A stretch of DNA of 64,000 nucleotides from NCBI GenBank assembly GCA_965263035.1, contig OZ253580.1, positions 1,696,001 through 1,760,000 of the forward strand. The letters run 5' to 3'. Below the pieces are notes generated by a model. It did no database searches and was not told the origin of the DNA. It saw only the letters and a program-made list of their open reading frames with translations. The DNA is from Acidobacteriota bacterium (GTDB taxonomy: Bacteria; Acidobacteriota; UBA6911; RPQK01; JAJDTT01). The position numbers were made by a program, and so were the translations under genes. Every line of letters begins with the position of its first letter. The first letter of the stretch is position 1. This document shows positions 16,250 to 51,998 of this stretch, one piece after another.

Positions 16250-16385
16250 GGAGGGGCGATTTCCAGTCGCCCCTTCCTCGGCACCCCCGTACGCTCATTC
16301 CCCCATGCTCTCCTGACCCCTTGGGAGTTCGGCGGTTAGAAACCGCCGCTCCGCTCATGTTCGGCGACTAAAAGTCGCCGCTCCC
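16250..16385. repeat. REPIN (inverted GGAG-type REP pair) plus a third REP
   Basis: GGAG-GGGCGATTTCCAGTCGCCC ... CGGCGGTTAGAAACCGCCG-CTCC, then CGGCGACTAAAAGTCGCCG-CTCCC, between convergent genes. Confidence 0.8.
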
Positions 16386-48854: not shown

Positions 48855-49688
48855 ATGCTCGTCATCGACTGCCACGCCCACATCTACTCGCCGGACGAAG
48901 AGCGCTACCCGCCGGTAGCACAGCCCCTGCGGGTACCGGGGGGAGGAGGCTCTATCCAAGACCTGCGGGCCGTGATGCGGGCCAACGGCGTCGCGGCGGT
49001 CCGGGCCGTTCAGACCGTCTCCTTTTACGGATACGACAACCGCTATCTTGCCGATGTCTGCCGCGCGAACCCCGGCTGGGTCAGCGGGCTGTGCACGTTG
49101 GATCCCGACGATCCGCGAAGTCCGGCGATGCTCTGGGACCTGGTGCAGAAGCATGGGGTCCGGGCGCTACGGAGCATTCCGGCGGAGTCCCGGACCCGGT
49201 TCGATCATCCGGCGGTGCGGCGGCTCTGGCAGGCCGCTCACGAGCTGGGGATCACCGTCGACATCTTCCTCATGCAGTTGGAATGGGTGGAGGATGCCGA
49301 GAGGCTGCTGCAAGAGTTCGCCCACCTCACCGTGGCCTTCTGCCACTGTCTGGATCTGAAGCCGGGGGAAGAGTACCAGCGGAGGCTGGACGCCGTCTTG
49401 CGGCTGGCCCGGTTCCCCAATCTGATCGCCAAAGTGGACTTCATCAGTACCGGGACCGAGAAGGGTTTCCCGGGAGACGATCTCCACGAGGCGGCTCTCA
49501 AGATCATCGAGGCCTACGGGGCCGAGCGCTGTGTCTGGGGAAGCAACTACCCGAACCGTCTCTGGACACCCAAAATGAGCTATGCGGAACATCTCCGGAT
49601 TTTTCGCGAGGTCCTGCCGCTGAAGGAAGAGGATCGCCGGCAGATCCTGGGTGATAATGCGCGGCGGCTCTGGTTTCCGGAGCTGTAG
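48855..49688 (+). CDS. Amidohydrolase_2 family protein
   Basis: IDCHAH, YDN.Y, PNL..K, YGAERCVWGSNYP, ILG.NA.RL. Confidence 0.9.
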   Translation: MLVIDCHAHIYSPDEERYPPVAQPLRVPGGGGSIQDLRAVMRANGVAAVRAVQTVSFYGYDNRYLADVCRANPGWVSGLCTLDPDDPRSPAMLWDLVQKHGVRALRSIPAESRTRFDHPAVRRLWQAAHELGITVDIFLMQLEWVEDAERLLQEFAHLTVAFCHCLDLKPGEEYQRRLDAVLRLARFPNLIAKVDFISTGTEKGFPGDDLHEAALKIIEAYGAERCVWGSNYPNRLWTPKMSYAEHLRIFREVLPLKEEDRRQILGDNARRLWFPEL

Positions 49689-49751
49689 CGGCCGGTCGGC
49701 CCGGGTCGGGGTTTGAGGTGTGGGCACGATTGCGCGGATTGGAGCGAAGAG

Positions 49752-49802
49752 GCGGCGACAAGAAAGTCGCCGCTCCCATTCGGCGGCAAGAAAGCCGCCG
49801 CT
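49752..49802 (-). repeat. Tandem REP array, left part (IS110 target)
   Basis: CGGCGACAAGAAAGTCGCCGCTCCCATT CGGCGGCAAGAAAGCCGCCGCT; continues after the IS as CCCATTTGGCGGCAAGAAAGTCGCCGCTCCC (51355-51385). Confidence 0.85.
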
Positions 49803-49818
49803 TGTCTGTTTAAATGGG

Positions 49819-49982
49819 GCCGTCCGGGTCGCTCATGAGCGACCCGGACGGCGGTGGCTGGACCGTACCGCCGCGGACTGTTACGAACCGTATGGGAGTG
49901 AGGTCGGCCACCGTCTTTCCCGATGTCCTGAATGGATACGAGGGCATCAAGGCCCGAATGACAAGCACAGGAGACAGGAAAG
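49819..49982 (+). ncRNA. IS110 bridge RNA (predicted)
   Basis: 5' hairpin 49819-49852; target-binding loop about 49852-49913 with ACCGCCGC and ATGGGAG; donor-binding loop 49915-49982 with ATGGATAC and GACAAG. Confidence 0.85.
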
Positions 49983-50930
49983 ATGAAACAGCATACCGTA
50001 GGCATCGACATCTCGAAAGCGCACCTGGACGCGCACCGGCTGGCCGACGGCCATTCCGCCCAGTTCGACAATGACCCGGCCGGCTTCCGGGCGCTGATTG
50101 ATTGGATCGGAACTCCGGTCGAGTGCGTCGCGTACGAGGCCACCGGTCCCTACCACCGGGACCTCGAGGAAGCGCTGTCCAAAGCGAAGCTGCCGCTGGC
50201 GAAGGTGAACCCCTGGCAGGCGCGGCGCTTCGCCGAGGCGACCGGGAGCCGCGCCAAGACCGACGCCGTAGACGCTCGGAAACTGGCCCAGCTGGCCGCC
50301 ACGCTGGAGCCGCGCCGGACCCAGGTGCCGTCCAAAACGCAACGCCGGCTCCAGGATCTGCAGACGTCCCGGGACGCGCTGATGCGCCAGCGCACGGCCG
50401 CGCTCAACCGCCGCCGACAGCTCCGCGAACCCCTGCTCAAACAGCAGAACCAGATCCAGATCAACATGTTCGAGCGCCACCTGCGCGCCATCGACCGCAA
50501 AATGCAGCAGCTGATTGCGGCCGACGAGGCGCGGGCCCGCAAGTTGGAGATCCTCACCTCCATCCCGGGGATCGCGGCCACCACCGCCGCCGGTCTGCTG
50601 GCCGAGATGCCCGAGCTGGGCGCCCTCAGCGGCAAGGCCGCCGCCAGTCTGGCCGGGTTGGCCGCCGTTCCGCGCGAGTCGGGGGCTTGGCAGGGCCGGG
50701 CCTTCATCCGGGGCGGACGGGCGCGGGCGCGACGGCTCCTGTACATGCCGGCGGTGGCCGCCCTGCGTTGGAACCCCGACTTGGCCGAGGTGTACCGGAG
50801 GCTGAGCGAGCGCGGCAAGCCCGGCAAGGTGGCCCTCGTCGCCGTCATGCGCAAGCTTATCGTCCTGGCCAACACCCTCGTCCGGCAGGACCGCACCTGG
50901 TTGCCCGTAGCGCCCCGAGCGACCTTCTGA
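49983..50930 (+). CDS. IS110-family recombinase/transposase
   Basis: DEDD RuvC-like motifs GIDISK, YEATG, KTDAVDA; SIPGI; RESG catalytic Ser; GK..KVALVAVMRKL. Confidence 0.95.
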   Translation: MKQHTVGIDISKAHLDAHRLADGHSAQFDNDPAGFRALIDWIGTPVECVAYEATGPYHRDLEEALSKAKLPLAKVNPWQARRFAEATGSRAKTDAVDARKLAQLAATLEPRRTQVPSKTQRRLQDLQTSRDALMRQRTAALNRRRQLREPLLKQQNQIQINMFERHLRAIDRKMQQLIAADEARARKLEILTSIPGIAATTAAGLLAEMPELGALSGKAAASLAGLAAVPRESGAWQGRAFIRGGRARARRLLYMPAVAALRWNPDLAEVYRRLSERGKPGKVALVAVMRKLIVLANTLVRQDRTWLPVAPRATF

Positions 50931-51386
50931 GGCCACGGAGAAACCCCGTGAGGAAAGGGAGCGTGTGGACCCCCTGATGGCCGTCTGTCGAACTTCCGGT
51001 CAAGTCTGGCCGGAAGCTTGCTTACGGCCATGAAAGCTCTTCACGCCCTGGGGAGCGCCGGGTCACCCGAAGGGTCGCAGCGAAGCGGAGGAGCCGGAGG
51101 CTTGACCCGACGCTCCCCAGGGCGTATCCGGACCTCCCGGAGGACTGACGTCGACGATCTCAGGTCCCTCGATCCAGTTATCGGTCCACTCATCGCCCCC
51201 TGCACGGCGCCCGGCGGATCCAGCTCGATCTCCGCCTCACCTCCGGCGGAAGAACGCTCCTCCTAACCCTGTGCCCTTTGGACCGGACAGATCACGTACT
51301 AACGACACGGGATGGAAACACCGATTAGCACCCACCACTTGCAACATGGATACTCCCATTTGGCGGCAAGAAAGTCGCCGCTCCCG

Positions 51387-51998
51387 CTACGCGACGATCT
51401 GCAGGCCGTATTCCCGGGCCGAGTGATGGAGCCATAGGCCCAGATAGTCGGCGAAGCTGCGGCGGACGATCACGTCGAAGGACTGGGAGTCGGAACCTTT
51501 GCCCCTGGGAATCAGTACGACTCCGGCCTTGCCCAGATTGGTCTGGGCACATTGGCCGGGGGAGGAGCTCCTGGGGTGCAGGTCCAGAGTGCATCCCTTG
51601 GCCAGAAGTTCCCGCCTCCGGGGGCCGGAAACGTTCACCAGGGTGTAGCCACCCGTGGTGTCGACGGCAGAGGCGTGGTGCTCCCCCAGAGCCTCCCTCA
51701 GGTCAGTCACGCACCGGGTCTGCGCGCCGGGACGGAGGACGAGCAACCACTCGTCGGGGCCCATCCAGCAGACGGTGACGTCCTCGCCTTCGGCGATGGT
51801 GTTGGGATCGACCGGGAGGCCCATGTCCAGAACTCCCTCCACCGCGGCCAGAAATGGTGCATCGCCGGCATCGCCCCGCAGATTCACGTAGCCCAGAAAG
51901 GGCCGCTCAGTGAGTACGACGCCAGGACTGCCGGTGTCTCCCGCGGCTGTGCTCGACAGGACCCCGACAAAGGGGGACTCTTGCCTGAGGTCAGACAT
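51387..51998 (-). CDS. soxG: Sarcosine oxidase gamma subunit
   Basis: VNLRG, WMGPDEWL, KGCTLDLHP, VRRSFADY. Last gene of the operon. Confidence 0.92.
   Translation of the reverse strand: MSDLRQESPFVGVLSSTAAGDTGSPGVVLTERPFLGYVNLRGDAGDAPFLAAVEGVLDMGLPVDPNTIAEGEDVTVCWMGPDEWLLVLRPGAQTRCVTDLREALGEHHASAVDTTGGYTLVNVSGPRRRELLAKGCTLDLHPRSSSPGQCAQTNLGKAGVVLIPRGKGSDSQSFDVIVRRSFADYLGLWLHHSAREYGLQIVA

What the first reader, a model, noticed from the sequence alone, without database searches (positions are those of the whole stretch)
49801..51360. IS110 bridge-RNA recombinase programmed against the host's own REP repeat, with all four guides readable
Seen: the element is bounded by CT cores. The reconstituted target is GCCGCCG-CT-CCCAT and the circle-junction donor is ATGGATA-CT-TGTC. 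The 180-nt left end folds into a 34-nt palindromic hairpin and two internal loops. Loop 1 holds ACCGCCGC (49867-74; 7/8 match to this target, 8/8 to REPs at 16342, 37450, 60606) and ATGGGAG (49892-98, reverse complement of CTCCCAT). Loop 2 holds ATGGATAC (49932-39, identical to 51346-53) and GACAAG (49960-65, reverse complement of CTTGTC). Known: this is the IS621 bridge-RNA layout (LTG/RTG/LDG/RDG, CT core). Inference: an intact, probably uncharacterised, reprogrammable 315-aa ortholog that targets a GGAG-type REP as a safe haven.
Basis: partly seen in the sequence, partly recalled or inferred. Interest (0 to 1): 0.9.

Follow-up and report, generated by a model that had tools for sequence, protein, structure and literature searches.

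The report
IS110 insertion sequence with bridge RNA
This is an intact jumping gene of the well-known IS110 family whose own small RNA reads both its ends and its landing site, a short repeat scattered through the host genome; it is a clear but ordinary new member of a known kind.

Summary
Window 49803-51352 is a 1550-bp IS110-group element flanked by CT. It encodes a 315-aa DEDD/Ser recombinase (PF01548 + PF02371; NCBIfam 'IS110 family RNA-guided transposase').

The 180-nt left end carries an IS621-type bridge RNA: a 34-nt 5' hairpin, a target-binding loop and a donor-binding loop.

- **Chance:** all four guide matches occur together in 0 of 20000 shuffles of the left end.
- **Copies:** the genome holds 13 copies, all with the same ends, all in ACCG(C/A)CG-CT sites. 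Most sit on the 3' arm of a REP stem-loop.
- **Alleles:** three target-loop alleles coexist. One has a single LTG change (C to A) and sits only in ACCGACG-CT sites inside the left end of an IS1182-like element, from at least two independent insertions.
- **Relatives (34-94% protein identity):** the four helices show compensatory changes (96.1% paired, 20 of 26 pairs). The guides, handshake bases and a split -35/-10 junction promoter track each element's own ends and flanks.

Not shown: RNA expression, the circular intermediate, and recombination itself.

One oddity is the 422-nt right end, which is longer than the left end. It results from inserted palindromic repeats that relatives lack.

This is a new member of a known kind, of modest interest.

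The parts
49781..49800 (+). REP stem-loop that supplies the left target half. Its 3' arm, GCCGCCG (49794-49800), is the left target (LT).
   Evidence: Seven G-C pairs. With the U-rich start of the element it scores as terminator-like. The same stem-loop precedes most other copies. There are 190 REPs of this type in the genome.
49801..49802 (+). Left copy of the CT core
   Evidence: CT precedes all 13 of 13 copies and all 19 elements compared across relatives.
49803..51352 (+). The insertion sequence itself, 1550 bp
   Evidence: 13 copies at 92-100% identity share these ends.
49810..49815 (+). -10 half (TTAAAT) of the split junction promoter. It would act only when the right end is joined to the left end.
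   Evidence: 17-nt spacing to TTGCAA in the right end. The same split arrangement is found in 14 of 14 relatives scored. This is a consensus match only.
49819..49852 (+). 5' stem-loop of the bridge RNA: 34-nt palindrome, 15-bp stem
   Evidence: It corresponds to the 5' stem-loop of the IS621 bridge RNA, reported as repressive (passages).
49853..49912 (+). Target-binding loop. Outer stem 49853-64 pairs with 49902-12. LTG is 49867-75 (ACCGCCGCG), RTG 49892-98 (AUGGGAG), handshake bases 49899-900 (UG).
   Evidence: Outer stem: 11 pairs, 10 with compensatory changes, 98% paired. Guides match flanks. 11 of the 14 variable left-end positions among the 13 copies lie at 49871-49900.
49915..49982 (+). 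Donor-binding loop. Closing stem 49915-20 pairs with 49977-82, outer stem 49926-30 with 49968-72, inner hairpin 49942-45 with 49952-55. LDG is 49932-39 (AUGGAUAC), RDG 49960-65 (GACAAG), handshake bases 49966-67 (CA).
   Evidence: Three helices supported by covariation. The LDG equals the right end plus C in 19 of 19 elements. The RDG changes together with the left end in relatives.
49983..50930 (+). Recombinase gene, 315 aa, with a DEDD RuvC-like domain and a Tnp domain
   Evidence: PF01548 7.1e-23 and PF02371 9.5e-19. NF033542 at 208 bits against a cut-off of 140. ISCro4 1.7e-35 and IS621 3e-32. D9, E52, D94, D97 and S233 align with the IS621 catalytic residues.
50931..51352 (+). Right end, 422 nt: a short ancestral right end plus inserted blocks
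   Evidence: The non-coding right end (stop codon to last base) is 11-78 nt in L038, L044 and the Foliamicus copies (L040, L041), 310 in L035, 423-424 in L031/L033, and about 2.3 kb in L032/L034. The fold is -183.3 kcal/mol, z = -3.35.
51043..51125 (+). 83-nt palindromic repeat nested in the right end
   Evidence: Also found outside the element, for example at genome 2981641-723 (95%). Element positions 1244-1309, which lie inside it, do not align in 3 of the 13 copies, and about 76 nt are gapped in the one such copy aligned. A contig of run X18 skips 51045-51120.
51339..51344 (+). -35 half (TTGCAA) of the split junction promoter
   Evidence: Relatives carry TTGACA or TTGACT at the matching place.
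51346..51352 (+). Left donor (LD), ATGGATA, the last 7 nt of the element
   Evidence: Identical to the LDG. It ends 12 of 12 copies that have a right end.
51353..51359 (+). Right copy of the CT core (51353-54) and right target CCCAT (51355-59)
   Evidence: Reverse complement of the RTG. The right flanks of the other copies begin CT-CC in 11 of 12.

Best explanation
This is an intact copy of an IS110-group insertion sequence that moves by bridge-RNA-guided recombination, as described for IS621.

**Inferred cycle**
1. The element excises as a circle.
2. Joining the right end to the left end across the CT core brings a -35 box (51339-44) and a -10 box (49810-15) together at 17-nt spacing.
3. Transcription then starts near 49822 and yields an RNA of about 160 nt with a 5' hairpin and two internal loops.
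4. A tetramer of the 315-aa recombinase binds this RNA.
5. The donor loop pairs with the circle junction. [quoted passage not shown]
6. The target loop pairs with a REP. [quoted passage not shown]
7. The strands are cut and exchanged at CT through a serine-DNA intermediate, and the bases just 3' of RTG and RDG ('handshake' bases) pair with the partner DNA.
8. The result is an insertion flanked by CT.

**Shown here:** the sequence anatomy, family membership, the conserved RNA fold, and guide-to-DNA matching within the genome and across relatives.

**Inferred:** transcription, the circle, and catalysis.
For: **Protein**
- IS110 family by Pfam and NCBIfam.
- It aligns over residues 3-299 with IS621 and ISCro4, with D9/E52/D94/D97/S233 at the catalytic columns (residue roles passages).

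**Copies in this genome**
- 13 copies share identical termini. CT lies on the left of 13 of 13 and on the right of 12 of 12 complete right ends.
- 10 of 13 have an open full-length frame, and three are 100% identical.

**Guides within the genome**
- The LTG ACCGCCGC matches 8 of 8 in 8 of the 10 copies that carry it and 7 of 8 in the window copy; the truncated copy at 5835261 was not scored.
- The three copies with LTG ACCGACGC all sit in ACCGACG-CT sites.
- Those three copies are 98.6-99.1% identical to one another, while one of their host elements is only 88.6-88.7% identical to the other two. That argues for at least two independent insertions.
- Variation among the copies concentrates in the target loop and spares LDG and RDG. 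Durrant et al. report the same pattern (passage on Extended Data Fig. 3).

**RNA fold**
- A covariance model built from 13 left ends finds the RNA just upstream of the recombinase gene in relatives down to 34% protein identity.
- On 25 sequences, 96.1% of cells pair and 20 of 26 pairs have compensatory changes. No shuffle of 500 reached this, and slid partners give 34-56%.
- RNAalifold recovers the same helices.

**Guides across relatives**
- The LDG 8-mer is found exactly once downstream of the gene, followed by T, in 9 of 9 relatives tested.
- The LDG equals the right end in 19 of 19 elements. Mean exact match for cognate against non-cognate pairs is 4.9 against 2.3 for LTG-LT and 3.8 against 1.5 for RTG-RT.
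- The RDG changes with the left end: CT-TGTA pairs with UACAAG, and CT-TATC with GAUAAG.
- The first handshake base pairs with position 7 of the partner DNA in 18 of 19 elements for each loop, with changes on both sides.

**Promoter and junction**
- A split -35/-10 at 16-18 nt is found in 14 of 14 elements scored.
- The REP hairpin plus the U-rich left end is terminator-like, as reported for ISPpu10 (passages).
Against: - No direct evidence of activity. The runs available are assembled contigs only.
- Rfam has no matching family.
- The ninth LTG base, opposite the second core base, is G where U would be expected. This holds in all 13 copies.
- RTG matches to the real right flanks are short: core plus 0-5 nt within this genome. 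The allele with RTG AAAAGCAG fits its own flanks poorly.
- The right end (422 nt) is longer than the left end (180 nt), the opposite of the IS110-group rule quoted. Inserted repeats explain this.
- 3 of 13 copies have broken frames.
- The covariation alignment was fitted to the model's structure, and the sequences are kin, so shuffle counts overstate the support.
- The inner hairpin of the target loop has no conserved register among the closest relatives.
Confidence: 0.9

Rival explanations
1. The element is a real IS110 member but a resident fossil here. The copies are inherited or spread by other recombination, and the bridge RNA is no longer made or used.
For: - 3 of 13 copies are broken.
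- No promoter-like site was found inside the integrated element.
- The second core base of the LTG is mismatched in all copies.
- There are rearranged right-end remnants at genome 4205113-4205524 and 5347234-307.
Against: - Three copies are 100% identical and six are 99-100% identical.
- 10 of 13 frames are open.
- All catalytic residues are kept.
- Nearly identical allele-B copies lie in host elements that are 11% diverged, which needs recent site-specific insertion.
- Lack of an internal promoter is expected for this family, where the promoter forms on the circle (passages).
Confidence: 0.07
2. The 'guides' are DNA-level sub-terminal repeats (recombinase binding sites) rather than RNA guides. 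The resemblance to the target is a by-product of insertion into a GC-rich repeat.
For: LDG is a direct repeat of the right end and RDG an inverted repeat of the left end. Many transposons have such repeats. No RNA has been shown.
Against: - The target guides match DNA outside the element and change with it, within the genome and across relatives.
- The stems that frame the guides keep pairing through compensatory changes, which is a constraint at the RNA level.
- In the family's type member the RNA is required in vitro (passages).
Confidence: 0.02
3. It is an IS1111-type element whose guide RNA lies in the long right end, and the left-end matches are incidental.
For: The right end (422 nt) is longer than the left end (180 nt) and strongly structured (z = -3.35). 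Long right ends typify IS1111 (passage).
Against: - All four guides lie in the left end.
- The right end shrinks to 11-78 nt in relatives that keep the same ends and the same left-end RNA.
- Parts of the right end are separate genomic repeats.
- Element positions 1244-1309 of the right end do not align in three copies that are otherwise complete.
Confidence: 0.01

Closest known systems
IS621 of Escherichia coli, the type bridge recombinase (Durrant et al. 2024, PMC11208160; Hiraizumi et al. 2024, PMC11208158; passages read)
   Same: - DEDD plus Ser recombinase of similar size.
- Bridge RNA in the left end with a 5' stem-loop, target loop and donor loop.
- LTG and LDG have the sense of the top strand, while RTG and RDG are complementary to it.
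- CT core, handshake bases and a split junction promoter.
- REP targets.
   Different: - The protein alignment covers residues 3-299 at E = 3e-32.
- The RDG is contiguous here (6 nt), whereas it is discontiguous in IS621.
- The RTG can reach 7 nt against 4 in IS621.
- The ninth LTG base is G, not U.
- The right end is 422 nt because of inserted repeats.
- The host is an Acidobacteriota-like genome of 62% G+C.
ISCro4 (PDB 9t56) and IS622, engineered bridge recombinases (listing and abstract)
   Same: Best solved-structure match, E = 1.7e-35, with the same domains and catalytic columns.
   Different: A distant orthologue. No functional data exist for the present element.
ISPpu10 of Pseudomonas putida (bioRxiv 10.64898/2026.03.19.712850; abstract and passages read)
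   Same: - It inserts next to a REP hairpin whose 3' arm is the left target.
- The target hairpin plus the U-rich element end forms a terminator-like junction (here).
- Many unoccupied REP sites remain.
   Different: ISPpu10 is reported to lack the 5' stem-loop of the RNA, whereas this element has a very stable one. Whether the hairpin is required here was not tested.
ISPpu9 of P. putida (PMC12288879; listing and abstract seen)
   Same: A REP-inserted IS110 member with an extra module downstream of the transposase gene, which also occurs separately elsewhere in the genome.
   Different: The module here is a set of palindromic repeats with no shown RNA product. No similarity to Ssr9 was tested.
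IS4321 and IS5075, IS1111-group elements that insert into the terminal repeats of Tn21-type transposons (recalled, from no call)
   Same: Allele B of this element likewise sits inside the end of another transposable element.
   Different: A different subgroup, with the guide RNA at the other end. Here the change of target rests on a single LTG base.

Membership tests
IS110 family bridge recombinase element (IS110 group) | Recombinase with an N-terminal DEDD RuvC-like domain and a C-terminal Tnp domain | tested here: met
   PF01548 (residues 6-147) and PF02371 (189-272). NF033542 'IS110 family RNA-guided transposase' at 208.2 bits against a cut-off of 140.
IS110 family bridge recombinase element (IS110 group) | Catalytic Asp, Glu, Asp, Asp and Ser (IS621 D11, E60, D102, D105, S241) | tested here: met
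   The alignment to chain 8wt6_A puts D9, E52, D94, D97 and S233-G234 at these columns. The two-residue offset between chain and paper numbering is my inference.
IS110 family bridge recombinase element (IS110 group) | Structured non-coding RNA in the left end with a 5' stem-loop and two internal loops | tested here: met
   Four helices at 96.1% paired, 20 of 26 pairs with compensatory changes. RNAalifold agrees. The alternative fold reaches only 64.8%. There is no Rfam family to compare with.
IS110 family bridge recombinase element (IS110 group) | The 5' sides of the loops match the top-strand sense of left target and left donor. The 3' sides are complementary to right target and right donor. 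The core is included. | tested here: met
   The LDG equals the right end in 19 of 19 elements. Cognate pairs exceed non-cognate pairs for all four guides.
IS110 family bridge recombinase element (IS110 group) | A core dinucleotide (CT) present once in the target and once at the circle junction, so that it flanks the inserted element | tested here: met
   Left CT in 13 of 13 copies and right CT in 12 of 12. All 19 elements across relatives have it.
IS110 family bridge recombinase element (IS110 group) | Handshake bases 3' of RTG and RDG that pair with the non-cognate DNA | tested here: met
   18 of 19 elements for each loop, with U:A changing to C:G and C:G changing to A:T or G:C. The rule comes passages.
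IS110 family bridge recombinase element (IS110 group) | Promoter reconstituted across the joined ends | tested here: inconclusive
   TTGCAA, 17 nt, then TTAAAT (4 of 6 matches each). A split -35/-10 is conserved in 14 of 14 relatives. These are consensus matches only.
IS110 family bridge recombinase element (IS110 group) | Left end longer than right end | tested here: not met
   The left end is 180 nt and the right end 422 nt in this copy. The excess is inserted repeat DNA that relatives lack. I read this as a secondary change, not as grounds for exclusion.
IS110 family bridge recombinase element (IS110 group) | Circular intermediate and RNA-dependent recombination | not testable with these tools
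   Only assembled contigs of public runs were available.
IS1111 group | Guide RNA in a long right end, and sub-terminal inverted repeats of 7-17 bp | tested here: not met
   The guides are in the left end. The right end is dispensable in relatives. The termini TGTCTG... and ...ATGGATA show no such inverted repeat.

The most novel reading that the evidence does not exclude
One genome holds a natural series of target-loop alleles of a single bridge recombinase.

- A single LTG substitution (ACCGCCGC to ACCGACGC), together with an RTG change, has moved one lineage from the host's REPs to a site about 45 nt inside the left end of an IS1182-like element. This lies between that element's end and its transposase start.
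- That lineage made at least two independent insertions there.

This would be a mobile element that reprogrammed itself to land in, and possibly ride on or silence, another mobile element. It would also be a ready-made natural test set for guide rules.
Probability: 0.55. Interest if true: 0.45.

Novelty: new member of a known kind. Interest (0 to 1): 0.3.

Why it matters
For biology, this extends the IS621 rules to an element from a poorly studied, high-G+C lineage: four guides, CT core, handshake bases and a split promoter. The closest copies are in Acidobacteriota genomes assembled from metagenomes, with relatives in Ca. Foliamicus and an alphaproteobacterium.

The genome also shows, on its own, how a single-base change in the target guide goes with a change of landing site.

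For tool builders, it offers a compact 315-aa orthologue with three natural target-loop alleles and their natural sites.

None of this changes the current picture of the family. Thousands of such RNAs have already been predicted (passage), and NCBI's family model already names the protein an RNA-guided transposase.

Tried and rejected
- **Rfam:** the scan of 49500-51700 at E up to 1 gave four weak chance hits (two miRNA families, RsmW and P17, all far below their gathering scores) and no bridge-RNA family.
- **Minimum-energy fold of the donor loop:** the hairpin GAUGUCCU/AGGGCAUC with the LDG in its loop was tested as a rival. It is rejected on 64.8% pairing, no better than slid controls.
- **Inner hairpin of the target loop:** I looked for a conserved register and found none among the closest relatives. 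I left it out of the model.
- **Public runs:**
  - All 24 runs are kept as contigs. I laid four of them (X16, X18, X1, X5).
  - Contigs from two metatranscriptome libraries of two studies cover the left end, gene and right end. Examples are X16 at 49821-50244 and X18 at 49893-50195. The tool warns that DNA can be present in such libraries, so this does not show transcription.
  - Depth figures cannot rank parts of a gene, so I draw nothing from them.
  - No joint from the right end back to the left end was listed. Contigs drop rare forms, so this says nothing about circles.
  - A joint 49802 to 51361 with 4 letters between it and only 22 letters on the shorter side most likely comes from other REP copies. 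I do not read it as an empty site.
- **Promoter scan:** the integrated element gave 0 promoter-like sites. The terminator-like count (2 found, 1.2 expected) is not significant as a count; only the position of one site is of interest.
- **Not used:** structure prediction, complex prediction and the large protein searches, because family membership was already clear.
Full report
**What is there**

Window 49803-51352 (+) is a 1550-bp element bounded on both sides by CT (49801-02 and 51353-54). It holds one long gene, 49983-50930, of 315 aa.

- The protein carries the two domains of IS110-family recombinases: PF01548 at 7.1e-23 and PF02371 at 9.5e-19.
- It passes NCBI's model NF033542, 'IS110 family RNA-guided transposase', at 208.2 bits against a cut-off of 140.
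- Its best solved relatives are ISCro4 (9t56, E = 1.7e-35) and IS621 (8wt6, E = 3e-32).
- In the IS621 alignment, D9, E52, D94, D97 and S233-G234 stand at the columns of D11, E60, D102, D105 and S241-G242. Those are the residues that cut and join DNA in IS621 (roles from passages of PMC11208158). The two-residue offset between chain and paper numbering is my inference.

- Reconstituted target: GCCGCCG-CT-CCCAT.
- Junction of the joined ends: ATGGATA-CT-TGTC.
- ACCGCCGC at 49867-74. It matches this copy's left flank at 7 of 8.
- ATGGGAG at 49892-98, the reverse complement of CTCCCAT.
- ATGGATAC at 49932-39, equal to 51346-53.
- GACAAG at 49960-65, the reverse complement of CTTGTC.
- The 34-nt palindrome at 49819-49852.
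- ACCGCCGCT in REP stem-loops at 16342 (+), 37452-60 (-) and 60608-16 (-).

In 20000 dinucleotide shuffles of the left end, the four matches occurred in 2083, 503, 62 and 1095 shuffles respectively. All four occurred together in none.

The genome is 6.198 Mb, one contig, 62% G+C. It holds 13 copies.

| Group | Number | Size |
|---|---|---|
| Full length | 9 | 1550-1553 bp |
| Lacking part of a hairpin in the right end | 3 | 1472-1475 bp |
| Truncated | 1 | 1123 bp |

- All 13 begin TGTCTGTTTAAA after a CT. All 12 with a right end finish GCAACATGGATA before a CT.
- Nine copies lie directly after a stem-loop of the type GGCGG-loop-CCGCC. The 3' arm of that stem-loop is the left target.
- The genome has 190 such REPs by a simple pattern, and 91 unoccupied ACCGCCG-CT-CC sites. 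Ten of these sites extend to CCCA.
- The window copy sits between two convergent genes, an amidohydrolase (ends 49688) and a SoxG-family gene (ends 51387), inside a run of three REPs.
- Ten of 13 copies have an open full-length frame: nine of 315 aa and one of 314 aa. Three are broken. Three copies are 100% identical.

**Three target-loop alleles**

Among the 13 copies, the first 185 positions vary at 14 places. Eleven of these lie at 49871-49900, inside the target loop, and none lies in the donor guides. Durrant et al. describe the same contrast for the family (legend of Extended Data Fig. 3).

| Allele | Copies | LTG | RTG region | Observed sites |
|---|---|---|---|---|
| A | 6 | ACCGCCGC | UAUGGGAG | REP sites |
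| C | 4 | ACCGCCGC | AAAAGGAG or AAAAGCAG | CT-CCTCTT, CT-CCTGTT, CT-CTCGAG |
| B | 3 | ACCGACGC | UUUGGGAG | cACCGACG-CT-CCCTA, all three |

For allele C, the fit is fair for the AAAAGGAG form and poor for the AAAAGCAG form.

The allele-B site is not a REP.

- It lies about 45 nt inside the left end of another repeated element.
- That element encodes a DUF772 + DDE_Tnp_1_6 transposase, which I take to be the IS1182/IS5 type; that family label is recalled, the domains are.
- An empty copy of this element at genome position 1954209 reads ACCGACG-CT-CCCAAA. This is the exact site predicted from allele B's guides.
- The three allele-B copies are 98.6-99.1% identical to one another. The host element at 653131 is only 88.6-88.7% identical to the other two hosts.
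- So at least two insertions into this site were independent. The third may have been copied together with its host.

**The RNA fold**

Single-sequence folding gives a very stable structure (-87.8 kcal/mol, z = -5.35), but it places the donor guide in a hairpin loop.

I collected relatives in two searches.

| Group | Protein identity |
|---|---|
| Acidobacteriota MAGs | 84-94% |
| Ca. Foliamicus | 65-69% |
| One genome of the same order | 57% |
| An alphaproteobacterial MAG with dozens of copies | 39-44% |
| Further genomes of the phylum | 34-44% |

The element is sparse in the phylum. 16 of 401 genomes sampled, counting the window's own genome, match at E up to 1e-40.

- A covariance model built from 13 left ends found the RNA directly upstream of the gene in all these groups, with E from 5e-37 to 6e-3.
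- On the 25-sequence alignment, the four helices are the target-loop outer stem, the donor-loop closing stem, the donor-loop outer stem and its inner hairpin.
- Together they pair in 96.1% of cells. Twenty of 26 pairs show changes on both sides.
- No shuffle of 500 reaches the observed values. Sliding the partners by 1-3 columns drops pairing to 34-56%.
- RNAalifold predicts the same helices on that alignment.
- The minimum-energy alternative for the donor loop reaches only 64.8% and is not better than its controls.

Caveats: the alignment was fitted to the model, the sequences are related, and the small inner hairpin of the target loop has no conserved register in the closest relatives.

**Guides track DNA across relatives**

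- Left ends and the RDG change together. CT-TGTC goes with GACAAG, CT-TGTA with UACAAG (Foliamicus), and CT-TATC with GAUAAG (L044).
- The LTG follows the left flank. GCCCUCGCU goes with GCCCTCG-CT, GUCGCCGCU with GTCGCCG-CT, and UUCGUGUCU with TTCGTGT-CT.
- In 9 of 9 more distant relatives, the LDG 8-mer read from the RNA occurs exactly once downstream of the gene. It lies 942-1084 nt after the RNA, is followed by T, and is preceded by a TTGAC-type (in one relative TTGAT) -35 box.
- The right flank matches the reverse complement of the RTG for the core plus 4-6 nt in 8 of those 9. This count was made by eye.
- In the seven most distant relatives, a conserved CT-TGTAT start of the left end was found. 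The 5-9 nt before it recur in the 5' side of the target loop. This too was read by eye.
- A crude exact-match score over 19 elements gives:

| Guide pair | Cognate mean | Non-cognate mean |
|---|---|---|
| LTG-LT | 4.9 | 2.3 |
| RTG-RT | 3.8 | 1.5 |
| LDG-LD | 7.0 | 1.1 |
| RDG-RD | 3.5 | 2.4 |

The elements are kin, so they are not independent trials.

- The base just 3' of the RTG pairs with the last base of the right end in 18 of 19 elements (U:A, or C:G where the end is G).
- The base just 3' of the RDG pairs with the last base of the left target in 18 of 19 (C:G, A:T or G:C).
- This is the handshake rule of Hiraizumi et al. (passages).

**Promoter and junction features**

- Joining the ends would place TTGCAA (51339-44) 17 nt upstream of TTAAAT (49810-15). 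A split -35/-10 at 16-18 nt is found in all 14 elements scored, with TTGACA or TTGACT in most relatives.
- No promoter-like site lies inside the integrated element.
- The REP hairpin followed by the U-rich start of the element scores as terminator-like. A preprint reports such a hybrid terminator for ISPpu10 (passages).
- All of these are consensus matches, not evidence of function.

**The long right end**

IS110-group elements are described as having long left ends and short right ends (passage). Here the right end is 422 nt.

| Relative | Non-coding right end (stop codon to last base) |
|---|---|
| Foliamicus L040, L041 | 11 nt |
| L044 | 62 nt |
| L038 | 78 nt |
| L035 | 310 nt |
| L031, L033 | 423-424 nt |
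| L032, L034 | about 2.3 kb |

- All of these relatives have the same last 30-40 nt.
- In L032 the right end contains long open frames on the opposite strand, probably another insertion.
- The extra DNA in the window copy is strongly structured (z = -3.35).
- It includes an 83-nt palindrome (51043-51125) that also occurs on its own elsewhere in the genome.
- Element positions 1244-1309, which lie inside that palindrome, do not align in three of the 13 copies.
- I read the long right end as secondary growth by nested repeats. This is in line with recent reports that IS110 elements expand (abstract seen).

**What is known, and verdict**

Bridge RNAs, their four guides, the CT core, REP targeting, handshake bases, the junction promoter and natural guide-target covariation are all published for this family. 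The element meets every defining feature that sequence can test. The only failed feature is the end-length rule, and that is explained.

It is therefore a new member of a known kind. RNA expression, the circle and recombination remain untested.

The one point a specialist might take from it is the within-genome allele series, in which one lineage was retargeted to the end of another insertion sequence by a single-base change in its guide.

Noticed in passing
L038:1899-2043, L039:2388-2479 (also L092 and L093): In two same-genus genomes, a second bridge-RNA-like left end with different donor guides (LDG AUGGAGAC) lies about 460 nt upstream of this element's own RNA. It is followed by ...GCTGGAGA-CT and then by a copy of the element whose first 15-25 nt are replaced. 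This could be a gene-less mini element carrying only a bridge RNA, or a tandem or nested insertion.
   Followed up: partly
genome C1:4205113-4205524 (outside the window; loci L014, L020, L025): Two right ends of the element face outward around the shared 83-nt palindrome, with no left end or gene between them. One end abuts the IS1182-like element at the allele-B site (CT-CCTAAAATAAGG). This looks like a rearrangement product.
   Followed up: partly
genome C1:5347234-5347307 (locus L022): A solitary right-end remnant, 88% identical, ends ATGGATA-TT rather than ATGGATA-CT.
   Followed up: no
L032:3449-5721 and L034: In a related MAG the right end of the element is about 2.3 kb. It holds long open frames on the opposite strand (401 aa, 141 aa and others). 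This is probably another insertion sequence nested in the right end, or cargo.
   Followed up: partly
genome C1:3360524, 2038245, 4848500, 2456933: Four further PF01548 matches belong to a second, larger IS110-family type with open frames of 505-558 aa. Their ends and RNAs were not examined.
   Followed up: no
window 49875, 49884, 49892: Contigs of other public runs carry the allele-B letters (49884 G and 49892 T, in X18 and X5). They also carry a further variant, G to A at 49875, the ninth LTG base (in X16 and X18). The allele series therefore exists beyond this assembly.
   Followed up: no
window 49751-49779 and 51362-51385: The two REPs on either side of the occupied one have the arm GTCGCCG. 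This differs from the LTG at its first two positions, and both are unoccupied. In related MAGs, elements with LTG GUCGCCGCU sit in exactly this REP variant.
   Followed up: partly
L047-L088 (one alphaproteobacterial MAG): Dozens of copies of a 39-44% identical relative occur in one small genome (41 loci returned). Many lie next to another repeat that begins ATACCAACGGTCAT.
   Followed up: no
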